A stretch of DNA of 64,000 nt from assembly GCA_013239625.1 (NCBI GenBank), contig MU053520.1, positions 524,934 through 588,933 of the forward strand, written 5' to 3'. Under the pieces are notes generated by a model. That model saw only the letters and a list, made by a program, of their open reading frames with translations. It did no database searches and was not told where the DNA came from. This DNA comes from Lama guanicoe. Its lineage: Eukaryota. Shown here one piece after another: positions 27,201 through 57,444 of the stretch. The position numbers and the translations under genes are program-made. Position 1 is the stretch's first letter. The number at the start of each line of letters is the position of its first letter.

Positions 27201-27224
27201 ATGATCTTGGTCTAAAAGGGGGAT

Positions 27225-34235: not shown

Positions 34236-36692
34236 GAGAGAGAAGCAAGATTGTGGAGTAGAAGGATGCTTATAGCTCACGCTTTCCCACAAATACACCA
34301 AAACTCACATCTACGGACCCACTCAGACAGCCAGCGCACCTGCCAAACTCTGACAGAACATTGCCCTCTTCAAAAAACAAAGACACCAAAAATCTGGTAG
34401 AAGAAAAGGAAAAAAGAAAGAAGAAAAAGCAAAACAGTGCAGCAAAGGAGGAATAGGACTTGTTCGCTGGGTCTCCTCCCTCCAATGGAGAGGCCAACGG
34501 GACAGAGGAGGAGCCTCCAAGGCCCAGAACTGCCCCAAGCACCTCTTGATGACAGAACTAAGTTAAATGGGCACAAAGGGTCTCCACAACATCCAGCCCG
34601 AGATAAGAGCTGGCAGCTGGGGGCTGGGACATGTTGCCAGAGCTGGGCAGAGGACCGTGGCCACTGCACTGAGGCAGCCCTGGGGGACTGCAGAGTGCTG
34701 CACACTGTGGCTGGGAGGGGATACAGAGCAGAACAACCTCGGTTCCCCATAAATTGTGAAAAAAGCAAAGCAACAAGGCAGGTGTGCCCTGGGGGCAGGG
34801 GCACCATAGCCTTTGTCTCCTCAGACCTGCGGTACCATTACTGGTGCTTCTCACGAGAAGAGAGGCAGGGTGCAGCCACAGCCGCTATCTCCTCCTGTGT
34901 GCAGTGCCTGGGCAGTGGCGGGGCCCAGCCCTGAATCCTCACCTGGGGGCTGTGCAACCTCCTAGGAAGGACTGAGACTTGTTTACAGCTGGAGGCAGAT
35001 AGGATCTTTCTGCCATGGAACCTCAGAGAACTTGCGCCACCAAGACCAACAAGGAGCTGAGATTTGGCACAGAACAAGGGCAGGGCTGTTCTGCTGTCTT
35101 CCCCGAGCCCGCTTACAGAGTGCCAATCTGAGGCGGAGCAGGCAGCTGTACAGAGCAGCGGAGCGACCAGTGCCTGGAGAGGGCAGGCAGCCACCCACCT
35201 TCCTGGCAGGAATGCATCACCTGACTGCGGTGCTGGGAGGGGGCGCGATCCACCCACCTGCCTTGCCCAAGTACAGCATCCAACTGCAGCATCAGGAGGG
35301 GGAGTGATTCGCCCACCACCAGCCACAGTGCCAGAGAGATATGAGCAATATAAAGAAGCAGAGGAACCACTTCCGATTAAAAGATAAAGAAAAATCCCCT
35401 GAAAGCACGATCAAGGAAATAGACATTGATGACCTACTAGATCAAGATTTCATAGAAGGAGTGATTAAAGTACTAAAGGAACTAAAAGAAATAGTGTTTA
35501 GAGATATAAAATATGCCAGAAATGAAATAGAAGCTATAAAGATGAACCAAGTAGAATTAGTAAACTGATTTGCTGAGATGAGAGCTGACCTAAAGAATGT
35601 TCAAAGCAGGCTGGATAATGCAGAGGAACGAATAAGTGACCTAGAAGACAGGACAACAGAAAGCACCTAATCAGAACAGCTAAAAGAAAAAAAAAATAAA
35701 AAACAATGAAAACAATATAAGGGACATATGGGATAATATAAAGCATGCCAATCTACGCATAATAGGAGTTCCAGAAGGGGAAGAAAGAACAAAGGGGATT
35801 GAAAAGATATTTGAAGAAATTATGACTGAAAACTTCTCAAACCTAAAGAAGGAATCGGATATCCCAGTACAGGAGGCTCAGAGGGTCCCAACAAGGAAGA
35901 ACCCAAACAGACCCACACCAAGACATATCATCATCAAGATGACCAGAGTCAAGGATAAAGAAATGATCCTAAAGGCAGCAAGGGAGAAACAAAGAGTGAG
36001 TTACAAGGGAACCCCCATAACGATCTCAGCTGATTTCTCTACACAAACACTACAAGCCAGAAGGGAGTGGCAAGATATATTCAAAGTCTTGAATGAAAAA
36101 AAGATGCAGCCTAGATTACTCTACCCAGCAAGGCTATCCTTTAGAATAGAAGGAGAGATAAAGAACTTCACAGACAAGCAAAAACTAAAAGAGTTTAGCA
36201 ACACTAAACCCATGCTAAAAGAAATATTGACAGGTCTACTCTAAATAGAAAAGAAGCAAGATGCTACAAAAATGAGAAACTCATAACTGGAAAGGTGATA
36301 ACTGCCATGAATTCCCAATAGAATAAACACAAAGTTGTAAAAGAAGACATCTAAATCATTAAGAATGGGAGAGGGAAGCAAGGAAAGCCACTGTGGGAAA
36401 CAGTATGGAGATTCCTCTAAATACTAGGAATAGACTTACCATATGACCCAGGAATCCTGCTCCTGCGCATATCCAGAAGGAACCCTACTGCAAAATGACA
36501 CCTGCACCACAATGTTCATAGCAGCACTATTTACGATAGCCAAGACATGGAAACAGCCTGAATGTCCATCAACAGATGACTGGATAAAGAAGATGTGGCA
36601 TATTTATACAATGGAATACTACTCAGCCATAAAAACCGACAACATAATGCCATTTGCAGCAACATGGATGCTCCTAGAGAATGTCATTCTAG
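34236..36692 (+). mobile_element. Non-autonomous ORF1-only L1 derivative (HAL1-like), copy 1, 3' end lost
   Basis: GC-rich ~1.1 kb 5' UTR, ORF1, ~140 bp spacer, then a direct join at 36387/36388 to the ORF2 C-terminal end. Confidence 0.92.
35341..36244 (+). pseudogene. L1 ORF1p (coiled coil, RRM, CTD), with two premature stops and a frameshift
   Basis: MSNIKKQRNH...; ENFSNLKKE; PTPRHIIIK; ARREWQDIF; YPARLSF. Stops TGA 35566 and TAA 35668 read TCA and CAA in copy 2. Confidence 0.95.
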
Positions 36693-36975
36693 GAATTCTT
36701 TAAATATGCTGCATACTAATTCTTTATAATACATATGATTTGCAAATACAGTATCTTAGGTTGTGGTTTATCATTACATTGTCTGAGGGGTGTATTTTAA
36801 AACACAAATCTTTATAGATTGAATGAAGTCCTCTTCATGACTTATTAGGGACTGTAATTTTTGTGTTATCTCTAAGAAATATTTTTCTAAAGCTAGGTCA
36901 CAATTATCGTCTCTCATTTTTTTTTATAGATGCTTTATAGTTTTAGCAATGTGATCCATTTGAGCTTAATATCCA
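36693..36975 (-). mobile_element. Old L1 ORF2 fragment
   Basis: gatttgcaaata...tttatagttttagc...tgatccatttgag are antisense ORF2 motifs. Confidence 0.6.
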
Positions 36976-37844
36976 TGCTGAGTATACTGGTTGGTGTGAC
37001 ACTAGGGATGAAGAAAATGGAACAAGTTGTTCCTGAGAATTGATTACCTTCATTCAAGTCAGTGCCCTGTATCTTGAAATTCTTAATTATTAATAAGGAG
37101 CAATTCATGTGAAAGTTTTAGAAACATTGTCTACTTTTCTGTCGGACATATAACTGGGACGTATGATGTAGGGATTGTGATTGAATTCTTCCTTTGGGCT
37201 CCTGAAATTTATCTAACCTAACAGAATTAAACTGTATCTAAAATGTGGCTAGGCAGCTCTTCAGACTGTCACTGAAATCACCATTAAGGTTCAATTATGG
37301 TACAGAATCTTTTAACGAGTGACAGACTATGCTTTTAGTTATAGAACCAGGGCTTATCACATTGAGAAACAATTGAAACTATTCAAATTCTCTCCTTGTC
37401 ACCTGTGGATAGAATTATTTTCACATCAGCTTTGTACTAACTACATGTACAAAACTGAAACACTGAAGACCAAGTTTAATTTGCTCATCCTAAGGTGGAG
37501 CATAAATACTATACATTGAGATATTGAATTCAAAAGTATACACCAAACCAAAATAGTTTGGTTTTATCTTTTATGCAGAGCACCATGATATATACAGATA
37601 TATAGCTATATATATAGATATCAAAGATATATTATTATTTCTGTCATATCTAAGGATGCAAAACACAGAAAATAGTTATGCCAACAATAATTTCTTTCAG
37701 TTCTTTCTATAAAGTAGCATGTGTATGTTTTAATGGACAAATTACAAGTTAAAATCCTTACATTCTGTCATTTTCAGTGTCAAATGTACCCAAAGCCAAA
37801 TATAGCAAGACCTGTCACATCATTATAAAATTATTGGTAAGATT

Positions 37845-38345
37845 CCATATTATTTTTCTATTGCTGCTGTAACAAATTACCACAGGGTTAGAAGTTTGCA
37901 GTGGCATCCATTTACTGCCTCACATTCCATGGTTAGAAGTCTCAGCAGAGTGCGTCTCAACTGAATCCTCTCTGCAGGGCCTCACAAGGTCTAAGCCTGA
38001 GTGAAGATGCCAGCTGACCGGCCTGTTAGCGTGAGGCTCTGAAGAAGACTCTGTTTCCACATTCATTCAGGCTGTTGGAAGAATTCCTTATAGTTGTAAT
38101 TAATTTGCAAGTAAACAGCAGCGTATTGAATCCCTGTTCTCTGAGTTTCTGACTTCCACTCCTGCTACCAGCTGGAGAAGAACCTTGCAAGGGCTAACAT
38201 GATCAGATTGATTAGGTCTACCCAGATAACCTAATATTTTATGGTCAAGTAACGTAATTCTAATTACATCTGCCAGGTCCCTTTTCCTGTATTCACAGGA
38301 CTAACATCAGGAAGCCAAGATTATGGGGGTCAAAGTTCTTCCTAT
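37845..38345 (-). mobile_element. MaLR (MLT1-type) solo LTR
   Basis: ctattgctgctgtaacaaattaccac...ttcattcaggctgttggaagaattc...taattacatctgc, typical MLT1 motifs. Confidence 0.8.
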
Positions 38346-39258
38346 TACTGGCTCTTAACTTGAAATGAATATATGATATTATTATATTGAACATGAAGCC
38401 CTTCCATTATTTTTAAAATTATTACCCCAGTAGCCAGTTGATACCAAAAATAGAGCTCAATGAAGCTTAAATTTACTGTGATCGCTTCTAGGCCCATTCT
38501 CCACCTGCTAATCTCCAGCAAGACATCTCTAATCCAAGAACGCAAATGGAGATACAGGATTTGATAATTACACTTTTTATGTACTAGTTAAGGATGTCAT
38601 CAATAGCTGTTGAACCACTGAGTTTTAGAAGTCATTACTCCCACTTGCTAATAGCTTTATGCAATTTTTTTAAATGTGAATTTTCAAACTTTGCCTTTAC
38701 ATTGTTAAAAATATATAGTGAGAACTTTGAAATTTTCTGTCCATCTAAGTATATTTAAATGCATGTATATAATTTTAAAAGCATGGTAAATGTGCTTTGC
38801 TCAAGTGAAAGTGTGATAATAAGCAACACTTGCTTATAAAAAGAAGAGAACATGATAATCAATAAAACATGAACTTAATTTATATTGAAATTTAGCATCT
38901 TAAAGATCCTTTCATATGCATCGCATATTTTCTGTTGAAGGCATAATCAATATCACTTAAAGATGAAGTTAGTTGAAGTTTGCTTCTTAATTTCTTGAAG
39001 TCCAGAAGTGTTAAATCAGACTGTTTAACATACATTATGCTATGTATATGTCCAGCACTCTGTAAGGCTGTTGAGTGTTTCTGAAACAAGAGAAATGTTT
39101 ACAGCACCTTTTGCTGTTACTAGTTAAAATAAGAAAATTTAGATTCAGGAAGTGGCAGACTTTGGATTTTAAATACTAAAGCCTAAATCTGTTTCATGCT
39201 AAGATTCCATTTTGCCTTCAGATTTGGAATTTAAAAAGCCTCAAAAAGAATTTAAAAA

Positions 39259-39716
39259 TTGGCTATTGTAAATAGTGCTGCTATGAGTGCAAAAATGCAG
39301 CAACATGGATGGACCTAAGATCATCATTCTAAGTGAAGTAAGCCAGAAAGAGAAAGAAAAATACCATGTGGTATCACTTATATGTGGAATCTTAAAAAAA
39401 AAAAAAGAAAAGATAAAGAAAAAGAAAAAAGAATACACTAACAAATGTATCTACAAAATAGAAACAGACTCACAGACAGAGTAAAAAAACTTATGGTTAC
39501 AGCAGGGGTGGGTAAGTACTGTATATAAAACAAATTTAAAAGGCAAATTTCTTCTGTATAGTGCAGGGAACCATATTAATAATTTGTAGTAACTTATAAT
39601 GAAAAAGAATATGAAAATGAATATATGTATGTGTATGCATGACTGAAACTAAATTATGCTGTACACCAGAAATTGATGCAACACTGTAACTGACTATATT
39701 TCAGTTAAAAAAATAA
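39259..39716 (+). mobile_element. Short L1 3' end with a 28-bp inverted 5' segment
   Basis: tgcagcaacatggatggacc...aagtgaagtaagccagaaagag...A tail. 39259-39286 is the reverse complement of tcatagcagcactatttacaatagccaa. Confidence 0.9.
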
Positions 39717-40382
39717 AAGTCTGCTGGATTTGGCCATTCGGAGATAATTAGAAAGCAAATTTAAAAAATAGATAAACAGTAAGGAAGAAAGCCAACCTGT
39801 GACGGCATAAGATTTTGCCTGAGTGAAATCTGGAGAAATGGAGCCATCAAGTGATCACTTACAAGAAGTTTAGAAGCTGTAAAACAAGTTGTAAGATGAA
39901 AGGTTGAGGAGAGAAGGAAAGGCACAGAAACATTTCTTGCTTTGCCGTTTTTTCATTCTAAGAATGAGCATTGTCTCAGAATGCTTGTAGCCAGAGAACA
40001 AGCAAAGGGAGGAGCAGAATTTTAAAAGGGTCAAAGATGGTGCAAAGTCAGGGAAGAGATAAAAGGGGATAAAATCAAGAAACAGGTGAAGATTTTTTTT
40101 TTTCAGAAAAGAGGATGAATATTGTCTCTTCAAAAGAAGAAAATGAGGCTGTGGGATTTGTCATTTTGAAGCACAGGAGGGTTAACTTGACAGCTTGCAT
40201 TGCATGACTACTATTTAGTTGAAGTTAAGAGGTAAGAAGATCTATGAAAACTGACTTTAGCAGTTCATAGAATCTAAGTGGTGGTGACAACTCCCATATG
40301 AAAATAAAAAAAAATGATTAGCTTATTAGTTACAAATTCAGGTATACAGTCAGAGTATAAATCCTGGCTCTACCATTTAAAC

Positions 40383-40940
40383 TCTATTGAGATAAAGTTT
40401 ACATACCCTAAAATTTACCCATTTAAAGTGTACAGTTCAATGTTTTTCAGTATATTTACAGAACTTTGAACCATCACTACCATCTAATTTTGTCATTTAC
40501 AACATTCCAGAAAAGAACCAAAGAGCAATCATTACCCGTTTTCCTCCCCTTTCCTGACGTCCAGACCTCAGCCCCGGGCAATCACTAATCTACTTTCACT
40601 CATTAAGGTTTTGTCTATTTATGACATTTCACATAAAAGGAATCATAGAATATGTAGTCTTCTGTGACTGCTTTCACATAGTGTAACGGCTTCGAGGTTT
40701 ACCGTATTATAGCATGTGTCGGTATTTGTTTTTATTCCTAAATAACATTCCATTGTATGAATATACCAGAATTTGTTTATCAGTTCACTAGTTGGTGGAT
40801 GTATAGATTTTTCCCAATTTGGGGGCTTTTATAAATAATACTGCTATGCACATTTGCTCTAAGTTTTGTGTAAGTATGTTTCATTTCTCTTGGACATATA
40901 TTCTTATAATTGAATTTCAGAGTCTTATGGTAACTCCGTC
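40383..40940 (-). mobile_element. L1MB-like 3' end inserted into a MIR (MIR halves at about 40345-40380 and 40955-41050)
   Basis: tattgagataaagtttacatac...cccatttaaagtgtacagttca. Flanks aaatcctggctctacca / ttatttaacatctctgag. Confidence 0.75.
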
Positions 40941-43900
40941 TATTATTTACTTTTGTACAGGTTATTTAACATCTCTGAGATTTATGTTCCCAGCATTAAA
41001 ATGGATGCAACAATTGGACCTATATCATAGGGTATGGGGGAAGATTAGATTACAAAAGAATATAAAACTTGACACATAAGTGAGGTAGAGATTAGTTTTA
41101 TTTTTACAACATGACTAGGTACAGTAACAACAAAACAGATCTTTGGTATCTCTGGTGTGTGTGCATGCATGTGTGTGTGTGTGTGTTTTGGAGACAGAGA
41201 GAGAGAAATTGAGACTGACGTTTGCCAGAAGGCAGTTCCAGTGTGAAATTCATGAGAGGGAAACTGCCGTGGCCCGTGCACACAATTTCCAATCATGTCC
41301 CTGTTGGATCATTGTATTTTAAAATTTTCTCTTTTACAATTTCTTACTGATCCAGATGTCTTTCAATTCTGAATTCACTGTTGTTGCCCCACTCATTCAC
41401 TCCCATCTTTGTTTCTCTCATAAACCTATAGTATTATAAACTAACCCACTGAGCCTCTGGTAACCACTCCCTTCCAGCAAGGAGTCTTTAGCTCAGCTGG
41501 CATCATAATAATGACAAACTCCCTCTGCTTTACCTTTTTCTGAGCATTGCCGTTTCCTTTTCTATACTGAACTGGTTTTAGCAAACAAACCACATCCCTG
41601 TTCTCCTCTTTTCCAGGCCACTCTTAAGAGATGGGAAACAGAATAATGCTTCAACCTTCACCATGACTAAAAGAAAATAAAATAATAACCAAACAAATGA
41701 ACAGGTCATGTTAAAAACATAAAAGCAGATTAAAGTTACTGAGTTATTTGTCCTTCTGTTTTCTTTGCCTTTGCTCAATCTAAAAGATTTCTCACAGGTT
41801 AGGAACTTAAGTCATTGTTAATGACTAATATGCTAAAAGATAATATACCTGCCCTGAGATTGTAATATTTTGATGTTGGCATCTACTGGAGTATGCCACT
41901 TCTATGCTTTGGTACTTTGGGGTATTTATATCACTAATATTCAAGCTCCTTTACCTAGTGAAGAAAACACTTTATGATCTTGCTTCTGTCTACTTTTCCT
42001 AGTTCAGACTTTCCTAGTCCATACTTTGACTGAAATGAAGAACTTTCTGCTCCTCCTCAGCACTGTTCCACGTTCTCCTCCTGTCCACAAGGTAGCAAAT
42101 GCTGCTACCTCTCCCAGGAATACCCTTCCTGGGGCTTAAACACCTTGACAGGGACTTTTCAAGTTAGGAGAAAATAAATTATTATAGCACATTAATTCAT
42201 ACCCATATTAAGGCATCACATAAGGTAAATTACATATCAAGTACCAAGCAAGTAACTACATAATATGTTATACAAGTTATGCCAAGGAACCCTTATTAGT
42301 ACATTCACTATTTTTCTTTTAACTGGGCCTGTTTAGCCTCCCAATTGTTCTCCTTTTCTTCAGTTACTTGCTCAATGTCCGTGCTCCACCCCTCCATACA
42401 CTGTTTCCTCCTTCTTATATGAAGGCATCAAAGGGATTGCTGTCCCCTGTTTAAGATCCTTCCATGGGCTCCCAGAAGCAATATAAACTTCTTGATGCAG
42501 CCACTCCACTCTTCATGATTTTGCTCCTATGTCAACCTTCAGCCTCATCTTTTACCACGTTCTATGTGCACACCGAAATTTTAGCCATATGGACCCCAAC
42601 CTTTTCTCTCCTGTGCCTTTGCACATTCTTCTTCTTCTTTCTAGAATCCCCCCACATGGTATCCTAAGTACCAGAGGTTTGCAGTAAATAAAACAAAACC
42701 TCTGTCATTTTGGTACCTGAATCAGTTACAAGGTCTCACTCTATCTGCCCAGATCACTTTACTGTATTTACTGATTTTTGACTCACTATGCTGTTTGTCT
42801 TTTTCTCTAGATGGGAGTTCCCAGAGTATGGGAAAGTTATGTTCTTTGTATCTTCAGGACTCATATATAGCCTGGCACATAATAAGCACTCAATAAAGGC
42901 TTACAAAGACAATGAATTAGGATTCCCAGCATCAATACTGGCTCAATCTAACTTGAGCTAATGCTTGAGTTAAGTAACTAACTAGATATTTAAGCCACAC
43001 AAGATGGTAGAATGAAGTTGGTTAACAAGGTCCTGCAGGCCTCAGGAAAAGGGGTCATGTGGCAAAATAGTCAGTGTGTCTAATTAAGGTGTATGCAATG
43101 TTTATTCTACCTTCTCAATGTCACCTCTGTGAGTGCATTTCCTCACAGAGTAAGAGAGTTTGAATTAGATGATCTCTTGCGTCTCTTTCATCTTTAATAC
43201 TGGCTAATAAAATGGATTAAAAAAGCATTCCATTGTTTCAAACTGTAAATTCAACTGACATATGTGAAAAAGAAAGTGTGCATTTGGGGCACTTGTAGAA
43301 ACACTGAAACAATCCATCCATTTTTTAGGGGGATGTAGGTTTGACAGAGATGCTCAAACACATCTCTTCTTTATTTTTTGGTATTCACAGACCACATGGG
43401 CATGAAATCATGAATTGTATGACACTAGAATTCAAAGCCACTTCTAAGTTGTACTGAGATAAAAGTAAAAATTAATCAAAACACATATGAACTTTTGAGA
43501 AAACAATGCATTAATAATTACTCTTTCCATTAATTAACTCTGGAGAATTTTTTTTCCTTGATGAAAGAATATTTGATAAGTTGTTAAAAACTTCTTATCC
43601 TAATATGTGTTCTCAACCCCCTACCCCAGCCAATGCCTTGTAATATAAAAAATAACCCAGTTGTTTTGTAGCCATAGGAATTTAGAAGGGCTAAGGACAG
43701 CAGAGATAGTTTGAACTCCCAGTCAAAGAAAACTTCCTATACAGAATCATCCTCTACATCTGTCCATTTAATTAATCCAGAAGTTAGGTCACAATCATAT
43801 GAGACATCAACTCAGTTTTAACAATTCTAACTATCATAAAGACTGTCTTTATATGGTGTCACAATGTGCTTTGCTGTATCTCTTGCCTATTGGTGTCACA

Positions 43901-44691
43901 ATTTCTCCTTTTTTTAATCTTAGATCTGTTCCATGAAAAGAGACATAATGTATCCAATTCTCTTTTCAAAAGACAGTCTGTCAAATATTTGTAAAAAGCA
44001 GTCACCCTTTTTTCTTCATTTTCTTCTTTATTTCAATAGAAATCCATTGAAGGCACAAATATTTTGTATAGACCTCTCCCTGTCTTGGCTAAAAATCTGG
44101 ATAGAGTGGCATAATCTAGGAAAACCCCTGTAATGTGTATTAACAGTAATTTATTGAGGGTTTTTATGTTAGCCAGTATAGTGCACATTCAAAGAGATAA
44201 GCATTAGGAATTTGACAACTTTGCTTGCAGCAGTCAGGTGGGGAACCATTTCATCCGCTTGAAATGGGCTAACTACTTAACAAGTTTAAACTGTTTCATC
44301 TGGGCAAAAGTATATTGCCATTAACTGAAATGGATAAACTGACAACCCTTTTATTATTAACTACTTGACAAAATATAAAGCATTGAATATCACGGACAGC
44401 GAAAATTTTTGCTCTAGAAGTGTTTAATCTAAATTGATCATTGATGTGAGAGCATCCAGGACAGATATTATAAACCACAGTGTGGCGTCAACAAAGTTGA
44501 ATATTAGGGAATACTCAGGATGTCATAAAAGCCAAAAGAAGTAAGAGCAAGAGACAGATGGGAATACAAGGGGAAAAAAATGACAGTATGTGTAAATATT
44601 GGAGACAGTAAATACTTCATGCATATGGCCTGTCTTTCACATTCAGGTGCCATAGTATGTGGCAAGGAAGATATTTTTGAAAAGCCCAAGA

Positions 44692-44960
44692 TAGTAAAAG
44701 AAATAAAAGGAATCCAAATTGGAAAGGACGAAATGAAACTGTTGCTGTTTATAGATGACATACTATATATAGAAAATCCTCAAAACATTCCCAAAATTGT
44801 TAGAATAAATGAATCAATATGGTTGAAGGATACAAAATTAATACATAGAAATCTGTTGCATTTCCATACACTAATAACACATTATCAAAAAGAGAAATTT
44901 TTGAAGTATAATTTACAATTGCATCAAAAATAATAAAGCACCTAGGAGCAAATCTAACAA
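44692..44960 (+). mobile_element. L1 ORF2 RT fragment
   Basis: [28 protein letters not shown] (the FADD motif region). Confidence 0.9.
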
Positions 44961-45534
44961 GACTATATCTGTGTTTTAAATGCTTTCAGGTCATGCTGTA
45001 TTTTTTCTTTTTTAGAACTTAACACAATTTTTTTTTCACTAAATACTTGTGTAATTTTTAATTGAAGCTCATTGCCCCTATTACACTATTGACTGTACGC
45101 AGGTGAAGACTAAATTATCTTTCTTTTCTCATTGCTAAAATTCTAGCACTTAGTACATATTTGAGGCCCCTAATAATGATCGAGTGAATAAAGGAATAAA
45201 TCCATTCATTGAGAGCTTTGCTAAATCTATTTTGTCTTAACAACACTAAAAAACACACAAACAAAAACTCACAAAGTACACTGTTTGATCTAAGTACTGA
45301 TACTGCTATTTCTAAAAGAAGAATGCCCTGAATCCCAAACTGAAATTTGAATCTGGCTGTCTGTAGATATCTTTTGAGCCTATATTCTTTCTTTTATTTT
45401 ATTTTCTCCCTATTTCTTCTTTATTTTTAATAAGCTGATATGTGATGGATTCTATTAGGAGAAACAAAAGAGAAATATGTATACAATCCCCAGGAGAACA
45501 GACAAAGGAAGTGATGCAAAAATCACAGTAGAGT

Positions 45535-45780: not shown

Positions 45781-46953
45781 ATTTTAATGGAGAATGACAT
45801 TTCAATGGCTTCCATCTTGTCCATTGACCTGAGAGCCTTCTTTAAAGTCTGAGGTAAGAAATACAGAAGCAGAAGCTGCAAAAACTGTTATCTTGAAGTG
45901 CTCTGTATAATTAGAGGAGCAGGGTGGCAGAAAGCCAGGTGACAATGTAGGGCAAACTTAGGGAAAAATGTAATGTGTCCAGTTCAGCATGGAATCCAGC
46001 ATGCTCTGGAACCTTAAGGCCTTGCCTTGGATACTTATGTTTCCAGGTGAGGCCTTCTAAGAAAAGGAGTGAGCACAGGACTATCCAGAACACTTGAGAA
46101 ATCAACCTGAGAATTCTTAGAAAAAGTGGTTTCAAGTAAGGTAAGGGTGCTTCAGGGTGAGTAGAAGTTGGGCAAGGGATTGATAGCCTCTGTGCAGGTA
46201 GTGGGGCTCTGCACCATGCATTTAGGAAACCTATTAATAAATATTAATAAATTTATTAAAAAAGACTTGCTTACATATCTGCTCTACCAAGCCTGGTTAA
46301 CAATATGGTTGCATGCTAAATAAATGATGCAACTTGAAGAGAATTGGTCCACACCAAAAAGGAGGAATGGAAAGCTGAAAACACCAAGCAGGTCAATGTC
46401 CAGTAAGAAAAACACATTAGCATGGCAATGCTTGCTCTTTGGACTATGTGCCTCACAGCTTTGTCAAACACCCTCTTTTCTCCTACTACCGGCACCAAAG
46501 TCCACATGTTTGAGAGATAAATCTGAGTGCCAGACAGCATGCTGTTTCAGAATTGTCTCTCCCTTCATACAACTACTGTCTCAAGATAGTTTTATAATGA
46601 GCAAGGCTGTGCTGCTTGGTTCTCTATGCTGCTACATGGTCAATTCTCTCTTAAGAAGCATCTCTATCACTCTTGTAAAGAGGCTCCTGAATTGGTATTC
46701 CACCACTTAATTTATACTGATATTTGTGAAAAGGAGGGGTAGAAACTATTTAGAAGCAAACTGCAAAAACCTGCTTCAAAAATATTGGTTTTTCATGATC
46801 AATTTCATTCAAAATGTTATAATTCCTTCCCTTCATCAAAAAATAGCTCATGACAGGCACACTTTTGTTAACAAATGCTTGTTACTAATCTATTCCAAAA
46901 GACTTTTGTTAAAGTTTAGTTTAGATTAGATTAGAATAGAAAACATTGCTGAG

Positions 46954-48105
46954 GATAAATCTCCTAGAAGAAAACATAGGCAAAACATTATCCAACAAAT
47001 CTCCTCAATGTTCTTCTAGGGCAGTCTACTCAGGCAATAGAAATAAAAGCAAAAAAATAAACAAATTAGACCTAATTAAAATTATAAGCTTTTACAGCAC
47101 AGAAAAGGAAACCATAAGCAAAACAAAAAGACAACCTACGGAATAGGAGAAAATATTTGCACATGGTGAAATTGACAAGGGTTTGATCTCCAGAATATAT
47201 AAACAGCTCATACAACTTAATAAAACAAAAACAAAAATGAAAACAAAAACAAAAACAAACTACCCAATCCCAAAATGGACAGAAGACCTAAACAAGCAAT
47301 TCTCCAGTGAAGACATACGAATGGCCAATAGGCACATGAAAAAATGTTCAATATTGCTAATTATCAGAGAAATGCAAATCAGAACTCCATTAAGTTATCA
47401 CTTCATACTAGTCAGGATGGCCATCATTCAAATGTCCACAAATGATAAATGCTGGAGAGGCTGTTGAGAAAAGGAAACCCTCTTGCACTGTTGGTGGGAA
47501 TGTAGTTTGGTGCAACAGTAATGGAAAACAGTACACAGATTTCTCAAAAAGCTAAAAATAGACTTACCATATGATCCAGCAATCCCACTCCTGGGTATAT
47601 ATCCAAAGGAAAGCTTAATTCAAAAAGACACATTCACCTGAATGTTCATAGCAACACTATTTACAATAGCCAAGACATGGAAACAACCTAAATGTCCATC
47701 AACAGATGATTGGATAAAGGAGATGTGCTATATTTATACAATGAAATACTACTCAGTCATAAAACATGATAAAAGAATGCCATATGCACCAACATGGATT
47801 TCTCTGGAGAATGTCATTCTAAGTGAAGTAAGCCAGAAAGAGAAAGAAAAATACCATACAATATCACTCATATGTGGCATCTAAAAAGAGAGAGAGAGAG
47901 GGAGACTGAGATTTGCAGATACTGGTATATATAAAATAGATAAACTAGTTTATGCCATATAGCACAGAGAACCATATTTGATATTTGTAGTAGCTTATGG
48001 TGAAAATAATATGAAAAATAATATGAAAATATTTTGTGCTGTACACCAGAAACTGACACAGCATTGTAAAACTGACTACACTTCAATTAAAAAGGTAAAA
48101 AAAAA
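46954..48105 (+). mobile_element. 5'-truncated L1 (ORF2 C-terminus, internally deleted 3' UTR, A tail)
   Basis: [39 protein letters not shown]. Confidence 0.95.
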
Positions 48106-48929
48106 CCATAATAGGTTGTTTCATTTAAACTCTAGGTGTTTAAAAAATACATATAACCCTTGAGCCAACTACTTAAAACTCACCAATGCCTCTTCCCCTG
48201 GGCAATTATTGAAGTATGTTTGAAGATTCTATGATGTGCCAAAGAATAAGAACAATATTTGCTTGCTGTCTTTCCTGTAATTGCTGGTTAGCCTTTCTTC
48301 TCTAAGTTCAAGTTGCAAGTGAGACATTAGATGCCTCTTGCCATCCTTTATCTACAGTAATTAACCAGAGAGTGGCAGCTCCAGCACTTTCCAATTTCAA
48401 AGTCTTTGTTATAAAAATAAATGATACATTTGAGGTAGGTGGGGAAAGAGAGTTTGGGAGGCTGACTTAAAACTGGGATATTACTTGATGTAAACATTTC
48501 ATTTGAATCAAATAAACCAGTGTATGCGTAATATGTCAGTTGACAATATAAATATGAAAAAAATGCTTTGTGGAGAGAACAAGATGGACTACACTAAAGA
48601 GTTTCCTCTCACTCACACAAAATTACGTGATCTTATGTGTAAAACCAAACTCTGTCCTTTTTTAGAAGAGCAAAGCAATCACTGTGCAGAAACTAAACTG
48701 TCAGAAACAGGAGTGAAAATGCTGAATGAGAACTGAAATGTCAGCTCATAAAATACTGTATGACAAAAATCATCTTCCAAGCCTCTGAAAGCAAAAATGG
48801 TTACCAACTCCCTTTTGGGAAATGAAGCCCCTCTTTAATTCTTTCTGGGGGCTTAACAAAAGTCTTCAGCTACATCCTTGACTTAGTCTACTCCCAGGTT
48901 GTATCATTTTCAATCCACCACAAAGGCAT

Positions 48930-49490
48930 TAGAAGGTTTCTGGCTTTTATTGTGATTGATATTGGAAGTCAAAACAAGTTTTGAGCAGAAGACTCTTTTA
49001 AAAAAATAGCTCTGTTGTTGCTTAAGACTTGGCTTTCTTGGGGAAGGAAAGGGGAAGAATCAGGATTAGAAGCTAGGAATAAAATTAGGAATATATTAAA
49101 AATAATCCAAAATGAGAGAAAATGGTGGCTTAAACTAGGTTGGTAAATGTTTCAGTGGTAAGAATGAATATTGAATCTATTTTGAATTTAAATTCATTGA
49201 GTTTTGTCAATGGACCAGATATAGGAGAAAAAAGAAATGAGCTAAGGATGACTTCAAAGACTGTTGCCTGAGCAAAGAGAATAATAAAATTCCCATATAC
49301 TTAAGTAAGGAAATTGCCAGAAGGAGCTGTTTCTCTGTATGTGGTTGTAAAGATAGTGGTGGTAGGGCGAATTGGTGAACTTTAGGGATTAAGTATTGGA
49401 CATATTAAATTTAAGTCTCTCAGTTATTCAAGTGGAGATGTTCAGTGGATAGTCATCCTTATGAGTCTATTGTTCAGGGAAGATGCTGGG
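48930..49490. mobile_element. L2 LINE fragment
   Basis: tggcttttattgtgattgatattggaagtc...ttttgagcag; aaggatgacttcaaagactgttgcctgagcaa; attggacatattaaattt. Confidence 0.65.
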
Positions 49491-49519
49491 GACCTCTCTT
49501 TGATTTGCTTCCACATCTG

Positions 49520-50134
49520 GGAGACATAGTCTCATTCAAACAACAATCACCCTGGACAAGGTTGAACAGACAAGGAAGACTTCTTTGCAATAGGAAGAGA
49601 GACTAGAAATGAACTCCACTCTAACAAAGGGCTGAAGGGTTGTCAAGAGCTGAGGTGGGGATAGGGAGATGTTAGGCCATTTTTGTTTGTTTGTTTGTTT
49701 GTTATTGGCTCATTGATGTTTCCCAAAGGGTAAGTAAACATTCTTGTATCTTCATGACAGAAGGTAGTTTTACAACTCTGGGCAAGGCTCCCACCAAAAT
49801 TAGGTGCATACCCTCCCACTGAAGAGCTATCATCCTTGATAACTATATTTCAAAGGGATGTCCCGCAGACCCTTAAGAAAGACCTTCATGGGTTGTACAA
49901 CTGGCAAAAGACTTTGAAAAACGTTTACATCTCAAAGGGTCACAGAAATAATTTACAATTGTAAGTTTTCTAAAGTAAAAATTCTAAGAAAAAGGGAGGG
50001 GTGGGAATTCTGCAGTTAGGCCATCTGGATTCTCTAAGTGCAAGGAGATTGAGCCCAGGGCACGGGCTGAGGAAGTGGGAAGAAAACCATTTCAAGTTAG
50101 TCAAACTGAAGCAGACATTAAGGCTGTTTGTTCA
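49520..50134 (-). mobile_element. Old ERV1 solo LTR (MER34/MER39-like)
   Basis: gtatcttcatgacagaaggtagttttacaac...tttacatctcaaaggg...aagttttctaaagtaaa. Recognised by pattern; ends approximate. Confidence 0.55.
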
Positions 50135-51288
50135 GTCTTTAATAGGATGATCATATAATTTATTTCTTAAGTCAATACAGTCTGGAGTGAAAGAGGATGC
50201 TATTAATAATTAAACTGCATAATAATTGTAGAATAGAGCACCCTATCAAATGTGGATGGATGGTTTTTCTTTCTTTACATTCTTCACGCCATTTTTATGT
50301 AAGTTGGAGGAGAGGGTGTTATGAGATATAATATATCCATGAAGATAAGTAAAAATTATCTTAAAAATACTATCTGATTAAATTGCCAGGAAAACATGTG
50401 TTGACAAGTAAAGATTTGTGAAAGATCAATTATGGAGATGATTTGACCTGATTCCTCCTTCAAGATACAGCCCAGGAACCTCTGTCTCTCTTTTCAGAGC
50501 TCTCTCTTTGCTTCTCAAAAACAGGACTTGGCATTTTTCTGTTTACTTCCCCGCAGCACAACTTGAGGACATTGAGAACACTGACTTCCTCTTTAATCAT
50601 GGTTACTTTAACACTTAAAGGTGTATCTTGTATACGGTAAGTGCTCAATAAATTTGATTAAAGTAATGGTGAAGGTAAAAAAAAAAAGTCACGTTTGGCA
50701 CCAATATGTTAAGTTTCAAAGACTGCAAAACAGAAAGTTGTAAAATGAACAGAAATGAAAATAGCAAGAAATAAAGCCTGATGTTTTATTTCATGAGATT
50801 CAGATTATAGTATGCAGGTGAAAGAGAAGAGAAATTAATTCATTTACCTAGTGGTATCCATCAGACTATTCACTGCCTTCCACTTCATATATTCTCCCTG
50901 TAGAATGTGCTTATTTCCCATTAACGCTTCATGAATTAACCATAACTGCCACCACTGTAATTAAAATATTGATTGCCAAGAGGAAGTGAAGATTCAGCAT
51001 GAATTCATTCAATAAAACTAATAGAGTCTTATTATGTGGTGTTCCTTGCAATAAGCTCCAGGAAAAAAATATATATATATATATATATTAGCAAGTAATT
51101 ATCTTGGCTGCATGAACTTGGGGGTAGAGATGAATTATAAAATAGTACAAAATGTCACAAAATTTATGGCTCCAGACTCACCAAATACATTGCAAATTAT
51201 CATTTCTAACTATGGTTCTTCGCAATGGATACCATCTGAGATAGTTCACACATGGCATTTCAATGGATGTATGTGCTTCCCATGCCAC

Positions 51289-51951
51289 TGATGCAGGAAA
51301 AATGGATGTGGGACATGAGGAGGGCCCCATCCCAAGCCTTGGCTGAGCCCCTGGGATGTGCCCTGCCAAGTGTGGGCCCTTGGCCTCACACAGGAAAGAA
51401 TTCAAGAGAAAGTTACAGTTGAGTAAAGGCAGATTTGTTCAGAGAGATACATACTCCATAGAGTGTAGGCTGTTTCAGAAGGCGAGAGAAAAGCCACAAG
51501 GTATGGGGTTGGGTGCTCAGGTTAAAGTAAAAGTGGATACACACTCCATAGACAGAATGCAGGCCATCTCCAAAGAGGAGGGAGCAAAAAGAGCTGCCAG
51601 GAGGTGCCTGGTTGCCAGTTTTTATAGGCTTCCTAGATTTATATGCTAGTAAGTGGAAGGATTAGTCTAATTAACTGGGGAAGGGGCTGGGGTTCCCAGG
51701 AAGTTGGCCATTTCCCACTCTCTGACCTTTTGTGGCTAGCCTTGGGACTGTCATGGCATCAGTGGGCATGTTATTCACCATGTTAACATATTACAATGAG
51801 CATATAATGAAGCTCAAGTTCTACTTGAAGTCAGATCTCCCACCATCTTGAGACTCAAGGCCTACTGGGGGTTGAATCTTTTGCCATCCTGGTGTTAACT
51901 GCTTTAGTATTCCTTGAATCACTGTGCCCTGTCCTCTTCCTTCCTGTCTCA
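51289..51951 (-). mobile_element. ERV1-type solo LTR
   Basis: TG...CA ends, near-TSD ccac/tcac, caggaaagaattcaagag motif, tttttatagg (TATA on minus), and attacaatgagca shared with family X. Confidence 0.85.
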
Positions 51952-52860
51952 TCACTGTGCCATGGCGTCCTCTTAATGGGGCTACCCAAGATCTCTGCCA
52001 CTACCCAGAGAATCCAGAAGCTCCTGGCTGCACCCAGTGCCAATGCTGTGCCTATGCCTATTCCAGGATTTCCCCTTGTAGCGGAAATATTATTTATCTT
52101 TCCTTTAACCCCTTGCTGTCTTTTACTAGACCTCACTTGTGTTCACTATACCTGACTCTATCTCAGCATGGTGAATTCATTCCCCACTAGTGCAATGGTG
52201 AACCTGGTTTCTAATATTCATCATAGATCTCATTTATGGAGAATATGCCACATGATAGGCACTGTGATAATTTTTGCAATAACCCAGTGAGTGTGGCATT
52301 GCTGTCATCTAATTTATATACACAAGTTTAAGTCATTTCTCAGTATCAAACATTTCTACTCCAGAGCTCACATTCTTAAACGTGCTATATGCCCAGGAAT
52401 TTGTTGTCAGTCACTACAGCACAGTCATTATTTCTATCATCAATCCTAGTAATTTTACTAGGAATGTCCAAGTGAGCTCGCCACTGCTGCCTGCCAGAAA
52501 TACCCAGAAATGGCCTAATAGGTTGAATACGTACCGTAAGGCCCCATGCAGGGAACACCCTTGTAACACAGCTAGGAACAACACATCGACACAGAGCCCA
52601 GTGCCTTCAACAATATTGTCATACAATAAAGTGCACAATACTATTGAGAGCAAAGACACTGAGGCCTGCTGTTGTGGAGAATTTGTTATCCAATTAGAAT
52701 GAGGTATAGGTGGAGTGCTACAATTATAGAGAGGTTGGGAAGACGCTACTACCTAAAGAAGAGGCTGGAAAATTAAATTGAGGAAGATGGTCCAGTGCTT
52801 TGAAGGCCATGCTAGCATTTGGGCTTTATTGTGAAGCAATGAAAATGTGTTGAAGTCTAT

Positions 52861-52993
52861 GGGGGTAGGGTATAGCTCAATGGTTAGAGTTCACATTTAG
52901 CATTCATGAGGTCCTTGGTTCAATCCCCAGTACCTCCATTAAAATAACTAACTAAAGAAATAAACCTAATTACCTCCCCCCACCAAAAAACAA
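52861..52993 (+). mobile_element. tRNA-derived SINE (camelid Vic-1-like), inserted in an L2 remnant
   Basis: A box tagctcaatgg, B box ggttcaatccc, then agtacctccatt and an A-rich tail. Confidence 0.85.
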
Positions 52994-54659
52994 AGTGTTT
53001 AAATCTTTATATAATTAGATTTGTGTTTTTAAAGGAACTGAGAATGACTTCTCTAGTGGCAACGTGAAGGATGGAGAAAATCAGGATGCGCAGTTTGGCA
53101 TCTGTTTTAATCCCACAGGCAAGAGCTGATCTCGTGCAGTGACCATGGAAAGTGAAAGTAGGAAAGAACGAGGCAGAAGTCTCTGGAGTAGAACTATAGA
53201 ATTTAGTGATTGATTGAACATCAGGCATGAAGGAGAGGAAACTGTTAGCAATGCCTGAGATTCCTCACAAGAATTCCCAACAATGGATTCCTTATAGTGA
53301 CAGCAAACTCCTATACAATCTGGCCTCCAGTCACTTACTAGACCTCACCTAGTATCACCCTTACACTTTCCCTCCAGTGGTACTGCCCTTCCTCTTGGAT
53401 TACAGCAGACAAGCTGTCATCTGAGGACTTTTACACTTCTCTCCCCTTTCCTTGGAGTACTTTTTCCCCAGATATATTCAAGTTCAGATCATCATCTCCT
53501 TCAAGTCTGATTTTATTTGTAAATCCCTTATTGATTACGTACTTAAAATTGCACACACACACACACACACATCTCTACCTAACTTGCCACAGCCTAGCCA
53601 GTTATCTACATTATTTTTTCTCTAAGCTGTTAACATTACTTGACATACAATATGTTTTATTTATTCATTTTTGTATCTCTTTATTCACATGCTAATGCAA
53701 GCATGTTAAGACAGGATTTCTATCTGTTTTGTTTACTGCTGGTGTCTATAAGTGGGTCTTTAAATGCTAATTTAGTTTAATAAATTAATTCTAGATCAGC
53801 TGAGATGGTGGACCCTCTTTTTACAATGTTATTTTCTCCAATGTTTGATTTCTTTATTTTTTACCTCAAATGCCCAAATATCACATCCAACAAGTAAAAG
53901 CATATACAATGACTCACATATGCATATACACAACCACGGACTTAGACATACACACACATACACATGTGCACACATGAAATATTCCTACTTCCTGATGTCA
54001 TCTCTTGGGACAGGAAATGAATTTTGGTCTATAGCATTGAAATATCCATCACTGCTTGTGAATGTTTGATGTTGTATACAGCATCTGCCTTAATGCCCCA
54101 ACCTACTGCAGATAGTTTTCTATGGCATATTTGAAGTAAGCTACAGAAGTAGAATGGGACTTTGAAAGAACCGTGGTTACACCTATGAGATGGCAAGTCT
54201 TCTAACAGAGCTGATGCTCAAACCATAATGGGCATGGGGATAAAAACTGAATTGATGCAAGGGGGAGAAAATATATCAAAGACATGTTTTAAATACTCAA
54301 TTTATTTAAGCTCCTTTAGCAATCCCATCTGGGAGCATGACAATTTCAGCCACTGGCTCTTGAGTAGTTCTCTACCACAAAATAGGGATATCTGGGGTGT
54401 CATCTCTTTGTAATCTATCACTGACATGATCTGGAACCTCAAACAGGAGACATCCATTATAATTCAAATTGTCCCCCATTCATCCAGAAATCCAGCCAAT
54501 TTGCTGAAAATAAATTCACCAAACCAAATTACTGAAATTCATCTTTCCACAAAGTAAATCCACCAAAAATCAAACTTCCTAAAGAAAACTTTGTTAAATG
54601 ACTCATTAAAAAAACTATGAAATTTCATAATTATATATTTTAACAAATTAAGAGAAAGG

Positions 54660-56640
54660 GAGACAAGCAAGATGGTGGACTAGAAGGACGCTTGTAGCTC
54701 ACCCTTTCCCACAAATATACCAAAACTCACATCTATGGACCTACTCAGCCAACTAGAGCACTTGCCAAACTCCAACAGAACATTGCCCTCTTCAAAAGAC
54801 AAAGATGCTGAAAATATGGTTCCTCTGCTTCTCCATATTGCTCATTTCTCTCTGGCACTGTGGCTTAAGGAGTATCAGTTATCTAGTTCTCCTGAAGACT
54901 GTGTGCTCTTAAAAGATCAAGAGAAATTCCCTGAAAGCAGAATCAAGGAAATAGACATTGATGGCCTACTAGATCAAGATTTCATAAAAGGAGTGATCAA
55001 AGTACTAAAGGAACTAAAACAAATAATAGTGTTTAGAGATATAAAATATGTCAAGAATAAAATAGAAGCTATAAAGAAAAACCAAGCAGAATTAGTAAAC
55101 TCATTTGCTGAGATGAGAGCTGACCTAAAGGCTGTACAAAGCAGGCTGGATAATGCAGAGGAACGAATAAGTGACCTAGAAGACAGGACAACAGAAAGCA
55201 CACAATCAGAACAGCTGAGAGAAAAATTAATAAAAAAACAATTAAAACAACATACGGGACCTATGGGATAATATAAAGTATACCAATCTATGCATAATAG
55301 GGGTTCCAGAAGAGGAAGAAAGAACAAAGGGGATTGAAAAGGAATTTGAAGAAATCATGACTGAAAACTTCTCAAACCTAAAGAAGGAATCAGATATCCA
55401 AGTACAGGAGGCTCAGAGGGTCCCAACAAGGAAGAACCCAAACAGACTCACACCCAGACATATCATCATCAAGATGGACAGAGTCAAGGATAAAGAACTG
55501 ATCCTAAAGGCAGCAAGAGAAAAACAAAGAGTGAGTTATAAGGGAACCCCCACAAAGCTCTCAGTTGATTTCTCTACACAAACACTACAGGCCAGATGGG
55601 AGTGACAAGATATATTCAAAGTCCTGAATGAAAAAAAAAAGATGGAGCCTAGGATACTCTACCCAGCAAGGCTATCCTTTAGAATAGAAGGAGAGATAAA
55701 GAACTTCACAGACAAGCAAAAACTAAAAGAGTTTAGCAACACTAAACCCATGCTAAAAGAAATATTGACAGGTCTACTCTAAATAGAAAAGAAGCAGGAT
55801 GCTACAAAAATGAGAAACTCATAACTGGAAAGGTGATAACTACCATGAATTACAAATAGAATGAACATGAAATTGTAAAAGAAGACATCTAAATCATTAA
55901 GAATGGGAGAGGGAAGCAAGGAAAGCTGCTGTGGGAAACAGTATGGAGATTCCTCTAAAGACTAGGAATAGACTTACCATATGACCCAGGAATCCCACTC
56001 CTGGGCTTATATCCAGAAGGAGCCCTACTTCAGGATGACACCTGCACCCCAATGTTCATAGCAGCACTATTTACAATAGCTAAGACATGGAAGCAGCCTA
56101 GATGTCCATAAAAAGATGACTGGATAAAGAAGAAGTGGCATGTTTATATGATGGTATACAATTCAGTCACAAAAGCCAACAACACAACGCCATTTGAAGA
56201 AACGTGGCTATTCCTGGAGAATGTCATTCTAAGTGAAGTAAGCCAGAAAGAGAAAGAAAAATACCATATGAGTTCGCTCATATGAGGAATCTAAAAACAA
56301 AGAAACAAACAAACAAAAGCATAAATACAAAACAGAAACAGACTCATAGACATAGAATACAAACTTGTGGTTGCCAAGGGGGCGGGGCGTGGGAAGGGAC
56401 AGACTGGAATTTTAAAATGTAGAATAGATAAACAAGATTATACTGTATAGCACAGGGAAATATATACAAGATCATGTGGTAGCTCATAGCGAAAAAAAGT
56501 GACAATGTATATATATATATATATATGTTCATGTATGACTGAAAAATTGTGCTCTACACTAGAATTTGACACAACATTGTAAAATGACTATTACTCAATA
56601 AAAAGTGTAAAATAAAATAAAGTAACAAAAAGAAAAATAA
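54660..56640 (+). mobile_element. Non-autonomous ORF1-only L1 derivative (HAL1-like), copy 2, with both termini
   Basis: Same 5' end, ORF1, spacer and junction (55925/55926) as copy 1. Full 3' UTR and A-rich tail. Perfect 18-bp TSD aacaaattaagagaaagg (54642-54659 and 56641-56658), preceded by tttt. Confidence 0.95.
54909..55782 (+). pseudogene. L1 ORF1p of copy 2 (start codon inverted; frameshifts in A runs; one stop)
   Basis: LKDQEKFPES...SRLDNAEERISDLED; MTENFSNLKKE...TPRHIIIK. Confidence 0.93.
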
Positions 56641-57444
56641 AACAAATTAAGAGAAAGGTTTAAGCCCTTTAATGGGAACACTTTAAGAACTTAAGAATAT
56701 ACAGTTTTGGTAACTTCTCCTGCAATAAAACTTTATGAACATTACAATTCAAAGCATTAGTATTTGAATTTTAAATATATGCATATACTTATTTAAAATG
56801 TGAATTATAGATTCTATCATCAAAATTTCATTACTTTATATAAACAATTTTCAGGTTAATGTAATTTAACACAATAACAAAAATATTTGTTCCTTTTGGA
56901 TTTGTAATATTTAATAGTTTTAGGCTTCATTTGGCAATTTCAGGCAGTATTTTAAATTTCAATATCTGGAGATTAGTTGCCACAATTTATTATATGCAAT
57001 TTCATACATGATGTGGTAGCTCCTGTCACTTCCTTTTTTTTCTATACATAGAGTCCGTTATATTTTTCCCTGCAGGGCATCCATGTCCTGCTTCCAGTCT
57101 TGAATGCCTTCACTCTTTGGTATTGAATCTTTCTCCCAACAGCTAACTAGTCAATGTTTTCAATTTCCTACTGTTAGATACCCAAAATTTCAGCATTTCA
57201 TAAATAATATGAGTCTTTCAGTTTCTTCAGATTTCTATTAGAGGCTTTTGGATGTTATTTTTTACTTTCCAAATTTAAAGCAAATTAGGCATAATATGTT
57301 ATTTTTAGCAATTAACTGTAACTTTATTCAGGTTAAATTTAAATTTTGAAAAGTAAATATGTATATGTAGATATATGTGTGTGTATTTGCACATACATAT
57401 TTGTATGTGTTCTAAAACATTTATATACATTAATATATGTTTAT

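What the first reader, a model, noticed from the sequence alone, without database searches (positions are those of the whole stretch)
34236..56658. Young ORF1-only non-autonomous L1 family: two dispersed copies share a nucleotide-identical ORF2 deletion
Seen in sequence: the elements at 34236-36692 and 54660-56640 both run 5' UTR - ORF1 - ~140 bp spacer - ...gagagggaagcaaggaaag|c(ca/tg)ctgtgggaaacagtatggagattcctc, going straight into the last ~0.3 kb of ORF2. The endonuclease and RT are absent in both, at the same junction. Their flanks are unrelated, so this is not a segmental duplication. Copy 2 has an A-rich tail and an 18-bp TSD at a TTTT/AA site, the hallmark of L1 target-primed reverse transcription. 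The two premature ORF1 stops of copy 1 read as sense codons in copy 2. Inference: a ~2.8-3 kb master element encoding its own ORF1p was mobilised in trans by L1 ORF2p, despite L1 cis preference. Established knowledge: HAL1 (half-L1) families have arisen independently in several mammals. I cannot tell from the sequence whether this lineage-specific family is already catalogued.
Basis: partly seen in the sequence, partly recalled or inferred. Interest (0 to 1): 0.8.

Follow-up and report, generated by a model that had tools for sequence, protein, structure and literature searches.

The report
Twin half-L1 copies sharing one deletion
Two dead LINE-1 jumping-gene copies 20 kb apart lack their copying-enzyme gene at the same join and carry the same stop mutation, so both likely descend from one enzyme-less element, most likely of the known 'half-L1' kind that would borrow the enzyme from complete LINE-1s; how many copies exist is unmeasured.

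Summary
The core observation holds. Copies at 34236-36692 and 54660-56640 run ORF1, 142 bp of spacer, then the last ~0.37 kb of ORF2 at one identical join; flanks are unrelated; copy 2 has an A-rich tail and an 18-bp TSD. Corrections: copy 2 keeps only 161 bp of 5'UTR, has its ORF1 start inverted and its own stops and frameshift; copy 1 has no tail or TSD; the copies differ by 7% (about 7-17 million years), so not young. New evidence: both share a stop codon in the ORF2 remnant, absent from 5 of 5 other L1 ends here, and undeleted relatives continue TA, not GT, at the break. This points to one already ORF2-dead ancestor and against recurrent splicing. Best reading: a HAL1-type family mobilised in trans (0.6). 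Live rival: local gene conversion between neighbours (0.25), given their proximity and a 142-bp identical run. Copy number was not measured. The host is probably a camelid (recalled, untested). Unchecked scan notes report similar elements, including another neighbouring pair, in this genome; whether the join is the same is unknown. No camelid HAL1 was found in print; Repbase and Dfam could not be checked.

The parts
34236..35340 (+). Copy 1: 5'UTR of 1105 bp, 56% G+C, CpG decayed (observed/expected 0.25)
   Evidence: head matches copy 2's head at 86%
35341..36244 (+). Copy 1: L1 ORF1 (about 300 codons), broken by stops at 35566-35568 and 35668-35670 and a +1 slip in the A run 35687-35696
   Evidence: Pfam PF02994 E 5.7e-26 and PF17490 E 3.3e-25; 87% to the open 300-aa ORF1p P0001
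36245..36386 (+). Copy 1: first 142 bp of the inter-ORF spacer, ending at the deletion join (36386/36387, 1 nt of microhomology)
36387..36692 (+). Copy 1: ORF2 3' remnant with the shared TAA at 36418-36420; the element stops at 36692 without 3'UTR, tail or TSD
54642..54659 (+). Copy 2: 5' target-site duplication, 18 bp; bottom-strand nick 5'-TGTT/AA-3'
54660..54820 (+). Copy 2: first 161 bp of the 5'UTR
   Evidence: 86.3% to 34238-34398
54817..54865 (-). Copy 2: inverted 49-bp piece around the ORF1 start codon (equivalent of 35321-35369); 4-nt microhomology with the head
   Evidence: 93.9%
54866..54908 (.). Copy 2: 43 bp of unknown origin
   Evidence: no exact match of 12 nt or more elsewhere in the window, either strand
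54909..55782 (+). Copy 2: ORF1 from codon 13, with stops at 55243-55245 and 55603-55605, a +1 slip in the A run 55232-55238 and two 3-nt insertions
55783..55924 (+). Copy 2: same 142 bp of spacer, same join (55924/55925)
55925..56293 (+). Copy 2: ORF2 3' remnant (about 0.37 kb; end read by eye) with the shared TAA at 55956-55958; heavily mutated at 56081-56215
56294..56640 (+). Copy 2: 3'UTR and A-rich tail
   Evidence: 76% to the L1 3' end at 10340-10674
56641..56658 (+). Copy 2: 3' target-site duplication

Best explanation
Both elements are dead L1 copies that lack ORF2 at the same join and share a stop in its remnant, and they are likely two insertions of a HAL1-type (half-L1) family whose ~2.9-kb master would have made its own ORF1 protein and borrowed ORF2 protein from complete L1s. 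Steps: (1) an L1 lost the rest of its spacer and about nine tenths of ORF2 in one cut at 1 nt of microhomology (join shown; size inferred from pig L1 lengths in PMC6501411); (2) the unconstrained remnant then gained a stop (shared stop shown; order inferred); (3) the master kept promoter, ORF1 and 3'UTR and was transcribed (inferred); (4) its RNA, coated by its own ORF1p, was reverse transcribed in trans by ORF2p at A/T-rich nicks (TSD and tail shown for copy 2; the trans route inferred from the ORF1mneoI assay); (5) each copy then decayed on its own over roughly 7-17 million years (lesions shown, age inferred).
For: Same join, unrelated flanks, own TSD on copy 2. Shared TAA where 5 of 5 other L1 ends in the window are sense (AAA four times, AGA once); 8 letters of the 306-nt remnant are shared by both copies and absent from the other ends, at 4 of them all five others agree, and they reach to 36636, 250 nt past the join. 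All four ORF1 stops are private. ORF1 differences lean synonymous: 19.5 of 56, omega 0.48-0.73. Both copies carry C at 36231, where only 15-16% of laid depth in three DNA runs is not A, so they belong to one sizeable sub-lineage. No rare (<3%) letter is shared in 36150-36383, which a conversion from an aged neighbour would have left. An ORF1-only L1 mRNA retrotransposes in trans and needs a working ORF1p (10.1101/2024.05.03.592410, passages); rat holds about 7500 HAL1 copies (PMC2241872, passage).
Against: Only two copies of the join were seen; no genome was held and five collection scans were empty. Two copies within 20.4 kb need a large family: 0.1 such pairs expected for 100 copies, 2.5 for 500, 10 for 1000 in 2 Gb. 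Divergence is uneven: a 142-nt identical run at 36117-36258 (permutation p 0.0008) and low-divergence 300-400-nt windows reaching over the join (p 0.002-0.004). The synonymous excess is marginal (P 0.006-0.13 by kappa; about 0.05 at the observed ratio) and would also arise between two autonomous subfamilies. Both copies are +1 in the same A-rich stretch; two separate slips are the shorter path (2 events against 3), but a master with an already shifted ORF1 is not excluded. The five comparison ends are older L1s (67-86% identical), so shared letters other than the stop may be the parent subfamily's. C at 36231 was not linked to the join.
Confidence: 0.6

Rival explanations
1. Local ectopic gene conversion: two same-strand L1s of related subfamilies inserted 20 kb apart, one lost ORF2 by a one-off deletion, and repair of a break in the other copied the join and nearby letters across, leaving each copy's flanks and TSD in place.
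For: Proximity and same orientation. 142-nt identical run, p 0.0008; 300-400-nt windows that include the join are less diverged than chance, p 0.002-0.004; non-CpG divergence 2-4% at 36096-36468 against about 8% in the head and most of ORF1 (crude CpG rule, segments pooled after seeing them). Omega below 1 fits two autonomous subfamilies.
Against: Windows centred on the join show no clear dip: 14 differences in 200, 20 in 300. The identical run ends 128 nt before the join. No rare letter is shared in 234 nt upstream: chance 0.03 if the donor had aged 1.5%, below 0.01 at 2%, yet the donor must have carried the stop. The tract would have to replace several kb of non-matching sequence (rarity recalled, not tested; search listed nothing on this case).
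Confidence: 0.25
2. A single dead, ORF2-deleted L1 that happened to be transcribed was retro-copied a few times like a processed pseudogene; no lasting family and no selection on ORF1.
For: Explains join, shared stop and TSD with no further assumption; the selection signal is marginal and a shared frameshift is not excluded.
Against: With 10 copies the chance of a neighbour within 20.4 kb is 0.0002; a control mRNA without ORF1 rarely moved in trans.
Confidence: 0.1
3. Recurrent RNA splicing (SpIRE-like) or two independent deletions from autonomous L1s produced the same join twice.
For: The 3' side resumes at a CAG in 3 of 4 other window copies and the joined sequence reads AG at the break.
Against: Undeleted relatives continue with TATAGAG and a T run beyond the break in 32, 31 and 16 contigs of three DNA runs, so the skipped part would begin TA (or AT), not GT. 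The shared ORF2 stop, about 112 codons before the end, would have to sit in an active parent (unlikely; recalled, not shown by the passages read). Caveat: contigs that match through 36383 are not listed as loose ends, so the exact parent's continuation was not seen.
Confidence: 0.03

Closest known systems
HAL1 (half-L1) elements: Smit 1999; Bao and Jurka 2010 (not held; seen only through passages of PMC5753468, PMC5786205, PMC4859970, PMC13756887); rat RNHAL1 (PMC2241872 passage); pig HAL1_Ssc (named in PMC6501411 passage)
   Same: L1 5'UTR and ORF1 kept, ORF2 lost by internal deletion, L1 3' end, TSD and A tail; would need ORF2p in trans.
   Different: Own join and host lineage (probably camelid); keeps about 0.37 kb of ORF2 with a shared stop; only two, dead, 7%-diverged copies seen, whereas RNHAL1 has about 7500 copies and is 98% like active rat L1.
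ORF1mneoI trans-complementation construct (10.1101/2024.05.03.592410, passages)
   Same: 5'UTR plus ORF1 mRNA moved by ORF2p in trans; needs RNA-binding ORF1p.
   Different: Engineered human/mouse reporter; nothing was assayed for this element.
SpIREs of human L1 (Larson et al. 2018, PMC5860796, passages)
   Same: Several copies share one exact internal junction and carry TPRT hallmarks.
   Different: SpIREs arise by splicing in the 5'UTR or 5'UTR/ORF1 and keep ORF2; here ORF2 is gone, the skipped part would not begin GT, and a stop is shared.
Autonomous L1 of the same lineage (P0001, unnamed 300-aa ORF1p; pig ORF1p 70-74%)
   Same: ORF1p 87% identical over the last 186 aa; 220 of 279 compared residues identical in both copies and P0001.
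   Different: Both copies differ from P0001 in the same way at 26 of 279 residues, so they come from another, likely older, branch.

Membership tests
HAL1 | L1-derived 5'UTR and ORF1 with ORF2 deleted | tested here: met
HAL1 | Inserted by TPRT (TSD, A-rich tail, endonuclease-type site) | tested here: met
   copy 2 only; copy 1 has lost its 3' end
HAL1 | Copies descend from an already ORF2-less master | tested here: met
   shared join and shared stop, 0 of 5 other ends; conversion from a neighbour would mimic this
HAL1 | Many dispersed copies share the join | tested here: inconclusive
   2 copies, 20 kb apart; no genome; scans empty; no read count across the join
HAL1 | ORF1 open in the master and under purifying selection | tested here: inconclusive
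   stops private, slips in neighbouring A runs, omega 0.48-0.73 with P 0.006-0.13
HAL1 | Match to a named Repbase or Dfam HAL1 entry | not testable with these tools
   libraries not available; Bao and Jurka 2010 not held
HAL1 | Mobilised in trans by L1 ORF2p | not testable with these tools
   inferred from anatomy
SpIRE | Junction at a GT-AG intron of the parent L1 RNA | tested here: not met
   relatives continue TA at the break; exact parent not seen
SpIRE | Each copy arises afresh from an autonomous parent | tested here: not met
   shared in-frame ORF2 stop
Segmental duplication | Homologous flanks | tested here: not met
   no match in 2 kb each side; own TSD on copy 2

The most novel reading that the evidence does not exclude
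An uncatalogued, abundant camelid half-L1 lineage (many hundreds to thousands of copies, perhaps the ~15% of ORF1 ends that carry C at 36231) that kept ORF1 under selection and swapped upstream ORF1 and 5' parts with autonomous L1s while its join-bearing core was inherited intact; this would explain the uneven divergence and give a natural test of why an ORF2-less parasite keeps its own ORF1p.
Probability: 0.25. Interest if true: 0.55.

Novelty: new member of a known kind. Interest (0 to 1): 0.36.

Why it matters
If it is a family, it adds an independent origin of the HAL1 way of life in a lineage whose published repeat surveys (passages of PMC8605555 and PMC6675863) do not mention it, improves repeat annotation, and offers a dated copy set for testing selection on ORF1p in cis. 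If instead it is gene conversion, it shows a multi-kilobase deletion passed between neighbouring L1s, which would warn that a shared junction in two nearby copies does not prove a family. The mechanism class itself is known and has been reproduced in cell culture, so the surprise is modest.

Tried and rejected
Own-genome search: no genome held. DNA pattern scans for the spacer found 0 loci in metagenome contigs, genome contigs and viral contigs; the P0001 scan of genome contigs gave 121 pattern matches and none confirmed. These are prokaryote and virus collections, so the blanks say nothing on copy number. Run search: 24 runs listed, 20 hold part of copy 1, none holds half of its words (best 0.46). 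Reads were laid only on 36150-36383, 4 of the 24 runs; depth there is no copy number, 40 of 53 variant rows and 24 of 502 loose-end rows were shown, and nothing was counted across the join. RNA run X15 holds the spacer, but as contigs, which do not show transcription. Splicing: first favoured because of the CAG, rejected. Segmental duplication rejected. The L1 3' fragment at 39295-39718 as copy 1's lost tail: rejected, 68% to copy 2 and no TSD. An older-subfamily donor for copy 2's mutated patch: not supported, it is further than copy 1 from every other end and keeps letters shared with copy 1. Scan look-ups by sequence, relatives, near place and one by words were empty. Literature on a camelid HAL1: searches listed no such description; term searches gave 0 hits for ORF1/ORF2 in PMC8605555 and 0 for HAL in PMC6675863; the one HAL1 hit in PMC6726744 is a 73-bp match to HAL1-3_ML. 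Bao and Jurka 2010 was not held and the supplements of PMC8605555 could not be read; either may already list this element.
Full report
Observation. A self-comparison of the window gives one long match, 35377-36691 against 54909-56231, 91.3% over 1323 columns, and a separate 161-bp match of the two 5' heads. The long match runs through ORF1, 142 bp of spacer and, without a gap, into the 3' end of ORF2. Four other L1 copies in the window carry the same downstream sequence preceded by ordinary ORF2 sequence, so the join at 36386/36387 and 55924/55925 is a real deletion shared to the base. The ORF1 piece 35684-36241 hits Pfam PF02994 and PF17490. Two kb of flank on each side are unrelated. Copy 2 has an A-rich tail and an exact 18-bp TSD; the nick reads 5'-TGTT/AA-3' on the bottom strand. 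Adding copy 1's 5' part to copy 2's 3' part gives a length of 2867 bp.

Corrections. Copy 1 stops at 36692 and has no tail or TSD. Copy 2 keeps only 161 bp of 5'UTR, followed by an inverted 49-bp piece with the ORF1 start codon, 43 bp of unknown origin, and ORF1 from codon 13. Its ORF1 has two stops and a +1 slip of its own. Both copies are dead. They differ by 7.0% in ORF1: 7 million years at the rate used in PMC8605555 (2.5e-8 per generation of five years; passage), 14-17.5 million at recalled rates of 2-2.5e-9 per year.

Host. No call names it. I recall the 3' end as camelid; unchecked scan notes on this genome say the same. Tools show only that the nearest ORF1p is an unnamed 300-aa protein at 87%, a second unnamed piece is at 86%, and named pig proteins are at about 70-74% by direct hit or cluster, and that DNA runs of four coded organisms hold 38-46% of copy 1's words.

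How the join arose. Because the 3' side resumes at a CAG in 3 of 4 other copies, I first suspected splicing. Contigs of three DNA runs laid on 36150-36383 show undeleted relatives leaving the reference behind 36382 and continuing through an A run into TATAGAG and a T run (32, 31 and 16 contigs; agreement 0.78-0.80). In register, the skipped part begins TA (or AT, with 1 nt of microhomology), not GT. Contigs that match through 36383 are not listed as loose, so the exact parent subfamily was not seen, and only 24 of 502 loose-end rows were shown. A DNA-level or reverse-transcription deletion is the better reading.

One ancestor. In the ORF2 frame both copies have TAA at 36418-36420 and 55956-55958, where the 5 other L1 ends aligned have AAA (4) or AGA (1). 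Eight letters of the remnant are shared by both and absent from the others; at four of them all five others agree. Those ends are older (67-86% identical), so some shared letters may be the parent's, but a stop about 112 codons before the ORF2 end is unlikely in an active L1 (recalled; the passages and section read in 10.1101/721357 show only that the C-terminal cysteine motifs are essential). Independent origins therefore fall to about 0.03.

Was ORF1 kept? All four stops are private. Against the frame of P0001 both copies are +1 in one A-rich stretch, but copy 1 in the first run (35687-35696) and copy 2 in the second (55232-55238); two separate slips need two events, a shared slip three, so a shifted master is less likely but not excluded. 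Over 279 codons 19.5 of 56 differences are synonymous, omega 0.48-0.73, P 0.006-0.13 depending on the transition weight: a hint, not proof.

Family or neighbour effect? This is the open question. Two copies within 20.4 kb need hundreds of copies genome-wide (2.5 pairs expected for 500, 10 for 1000), or a local process. For a local conversion: an identical run of 142 nt at 36117-36258 (p 0.0008) and low-divergence windows of 300-400 nt that include the join (p 0.002-0.004; 0.014-0.021 if the window may lie anywhere). Against: windows centred on the join hold 14 differences in 200 and 20 in 300; in 36150-36383 the copies share no letter rarer than 3% among the listed variants, only C at 36231 (15-16% of depth not A in DNA runs, 32% in the RNA run) and three letters at about 37%; a donor aged 1.5% would leave none with chance 0.03. 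I put the family at 0.6, conversion at 0.25 and a few chance retrocopies at 0.1. No whole genome was held, five scans of prokaryote and virus collections were empty, and no count across the join was obtained.

Mechanism. A master with promoter, ORF1 and L1 3' end would make RNA bound in cis by its own ORF1p and be copied by ORF2p from complete L1s. This is inferred here but shown for ORF1mneoI, which moved in trans only with an RNA-binding ORF1p, while a plain EGFP mRNA rarely did (10.1101/2024.05.03.592410, passages).

Comparison. It works like HAL1, a non-autonomous L1 derivative encoding only ORF1p that arose several times in mammals (PMC5753468, PMC5786205, passages); rat has about 7500 copies (PMC2241872, passage) and pig has HAL1_Ssc (PMC6501411, passage). 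Structure, TPRT hallmarks and descent from an ORF2-less ancestor are met; copy number and selection on ORF1 are inconclusive. It fails the SpIRE tests (PMC5860796, passages). Five searches and term look-ups in three camelid papers found no camelid HAL1, but Bao and Jurka 2010 was not held, supplements of PMC8605555 could not be read, and Repbase and Dfam were out of reach. All papers were seen as search listings and passages, plus one section of 10.1101/721357; none was read whole.

Earlier notes. The scan has unchecked notes of several ORF1-only L1s in this genome and other camelid genomes, among them another neighbouring pair with a shared join and shared lesions and a TSD-flanked element of 2834 letters. 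I could not compare their joins with this one; they are leads only. If they share the join the family is established; if each pair has its own join, a local process gains weight.

Verdict. Real feature, common descent well supported, family status likely but unmeasured, mechanism of a known kind. New member of a known kind; interest 0.36.

Noticed in passing
window 54817-54908: Copy 2's 5'UTR is replaced by an inverted piece ending 7 nt from where ORF1 resumes (twin-priming-like geometry) yet preceded by a sense 161-bp head; 4-nt microhomology at the turn, which falls on the GT at 34397-34398 of copy 1, about where unchecked scan notes place a splice donor of camelid mini-L1s. 43 bp of filler are unexplained.
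   Followed up: partly
window 56081-56215: Mutation cluster in copy 2: 21 private changes in 135 nt against 4 in copy 1 and 5 in the preceding 154 nt (Fisher p 0.0005 and 0.0003), mixed types with A>G most common. Error-prone repair or assembly error; unexplained.
   Followed up: partly
window 36117-36258 / 55655-55796: 142 nt identical between the two copies across the ORF1 end (permutation p 0.0008).
   Followed up: yes
window 36231; runs X1, X3, X5, X15: The letter shared by both copies changes an ORF1p residue (K to T against P0001); non-A letters are 15-16% of depth in three DNA runs and 32% in one RNA run. Contig depth is a poor measure; possible family marker.
   Followed up: partly
window about 22570-31000, minus strand: Decayed endogenous-retrovirus remnant: RNase H hit at 25202-25495 (E 6.3e-10) and a below-cutoff Gag p30 hit at 27991-28347, with related LTR-like repeats at 22573-23106, 30057-30238, 30714-30971 and 33607-34161 (72-77%).
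   Followed up: no
window 33607-34161: An LTR-like repeat ends about 75 bp upstream of copy 1's 5' end.
   Followed up: no
window 39295-39718: An older L1 3' end lies 2.6 kb after copy 1 and starts close to the position where copy 1 breaks off; 68% to copy 2, no TSD with copy 1.
   Followed up: yes
window 20248-20638, minus strand: Older L1 ORF1 fragment, 67% to copy 1; the window is L1-dense, with at least five other ORF2 3' ends.
   Followed up: no
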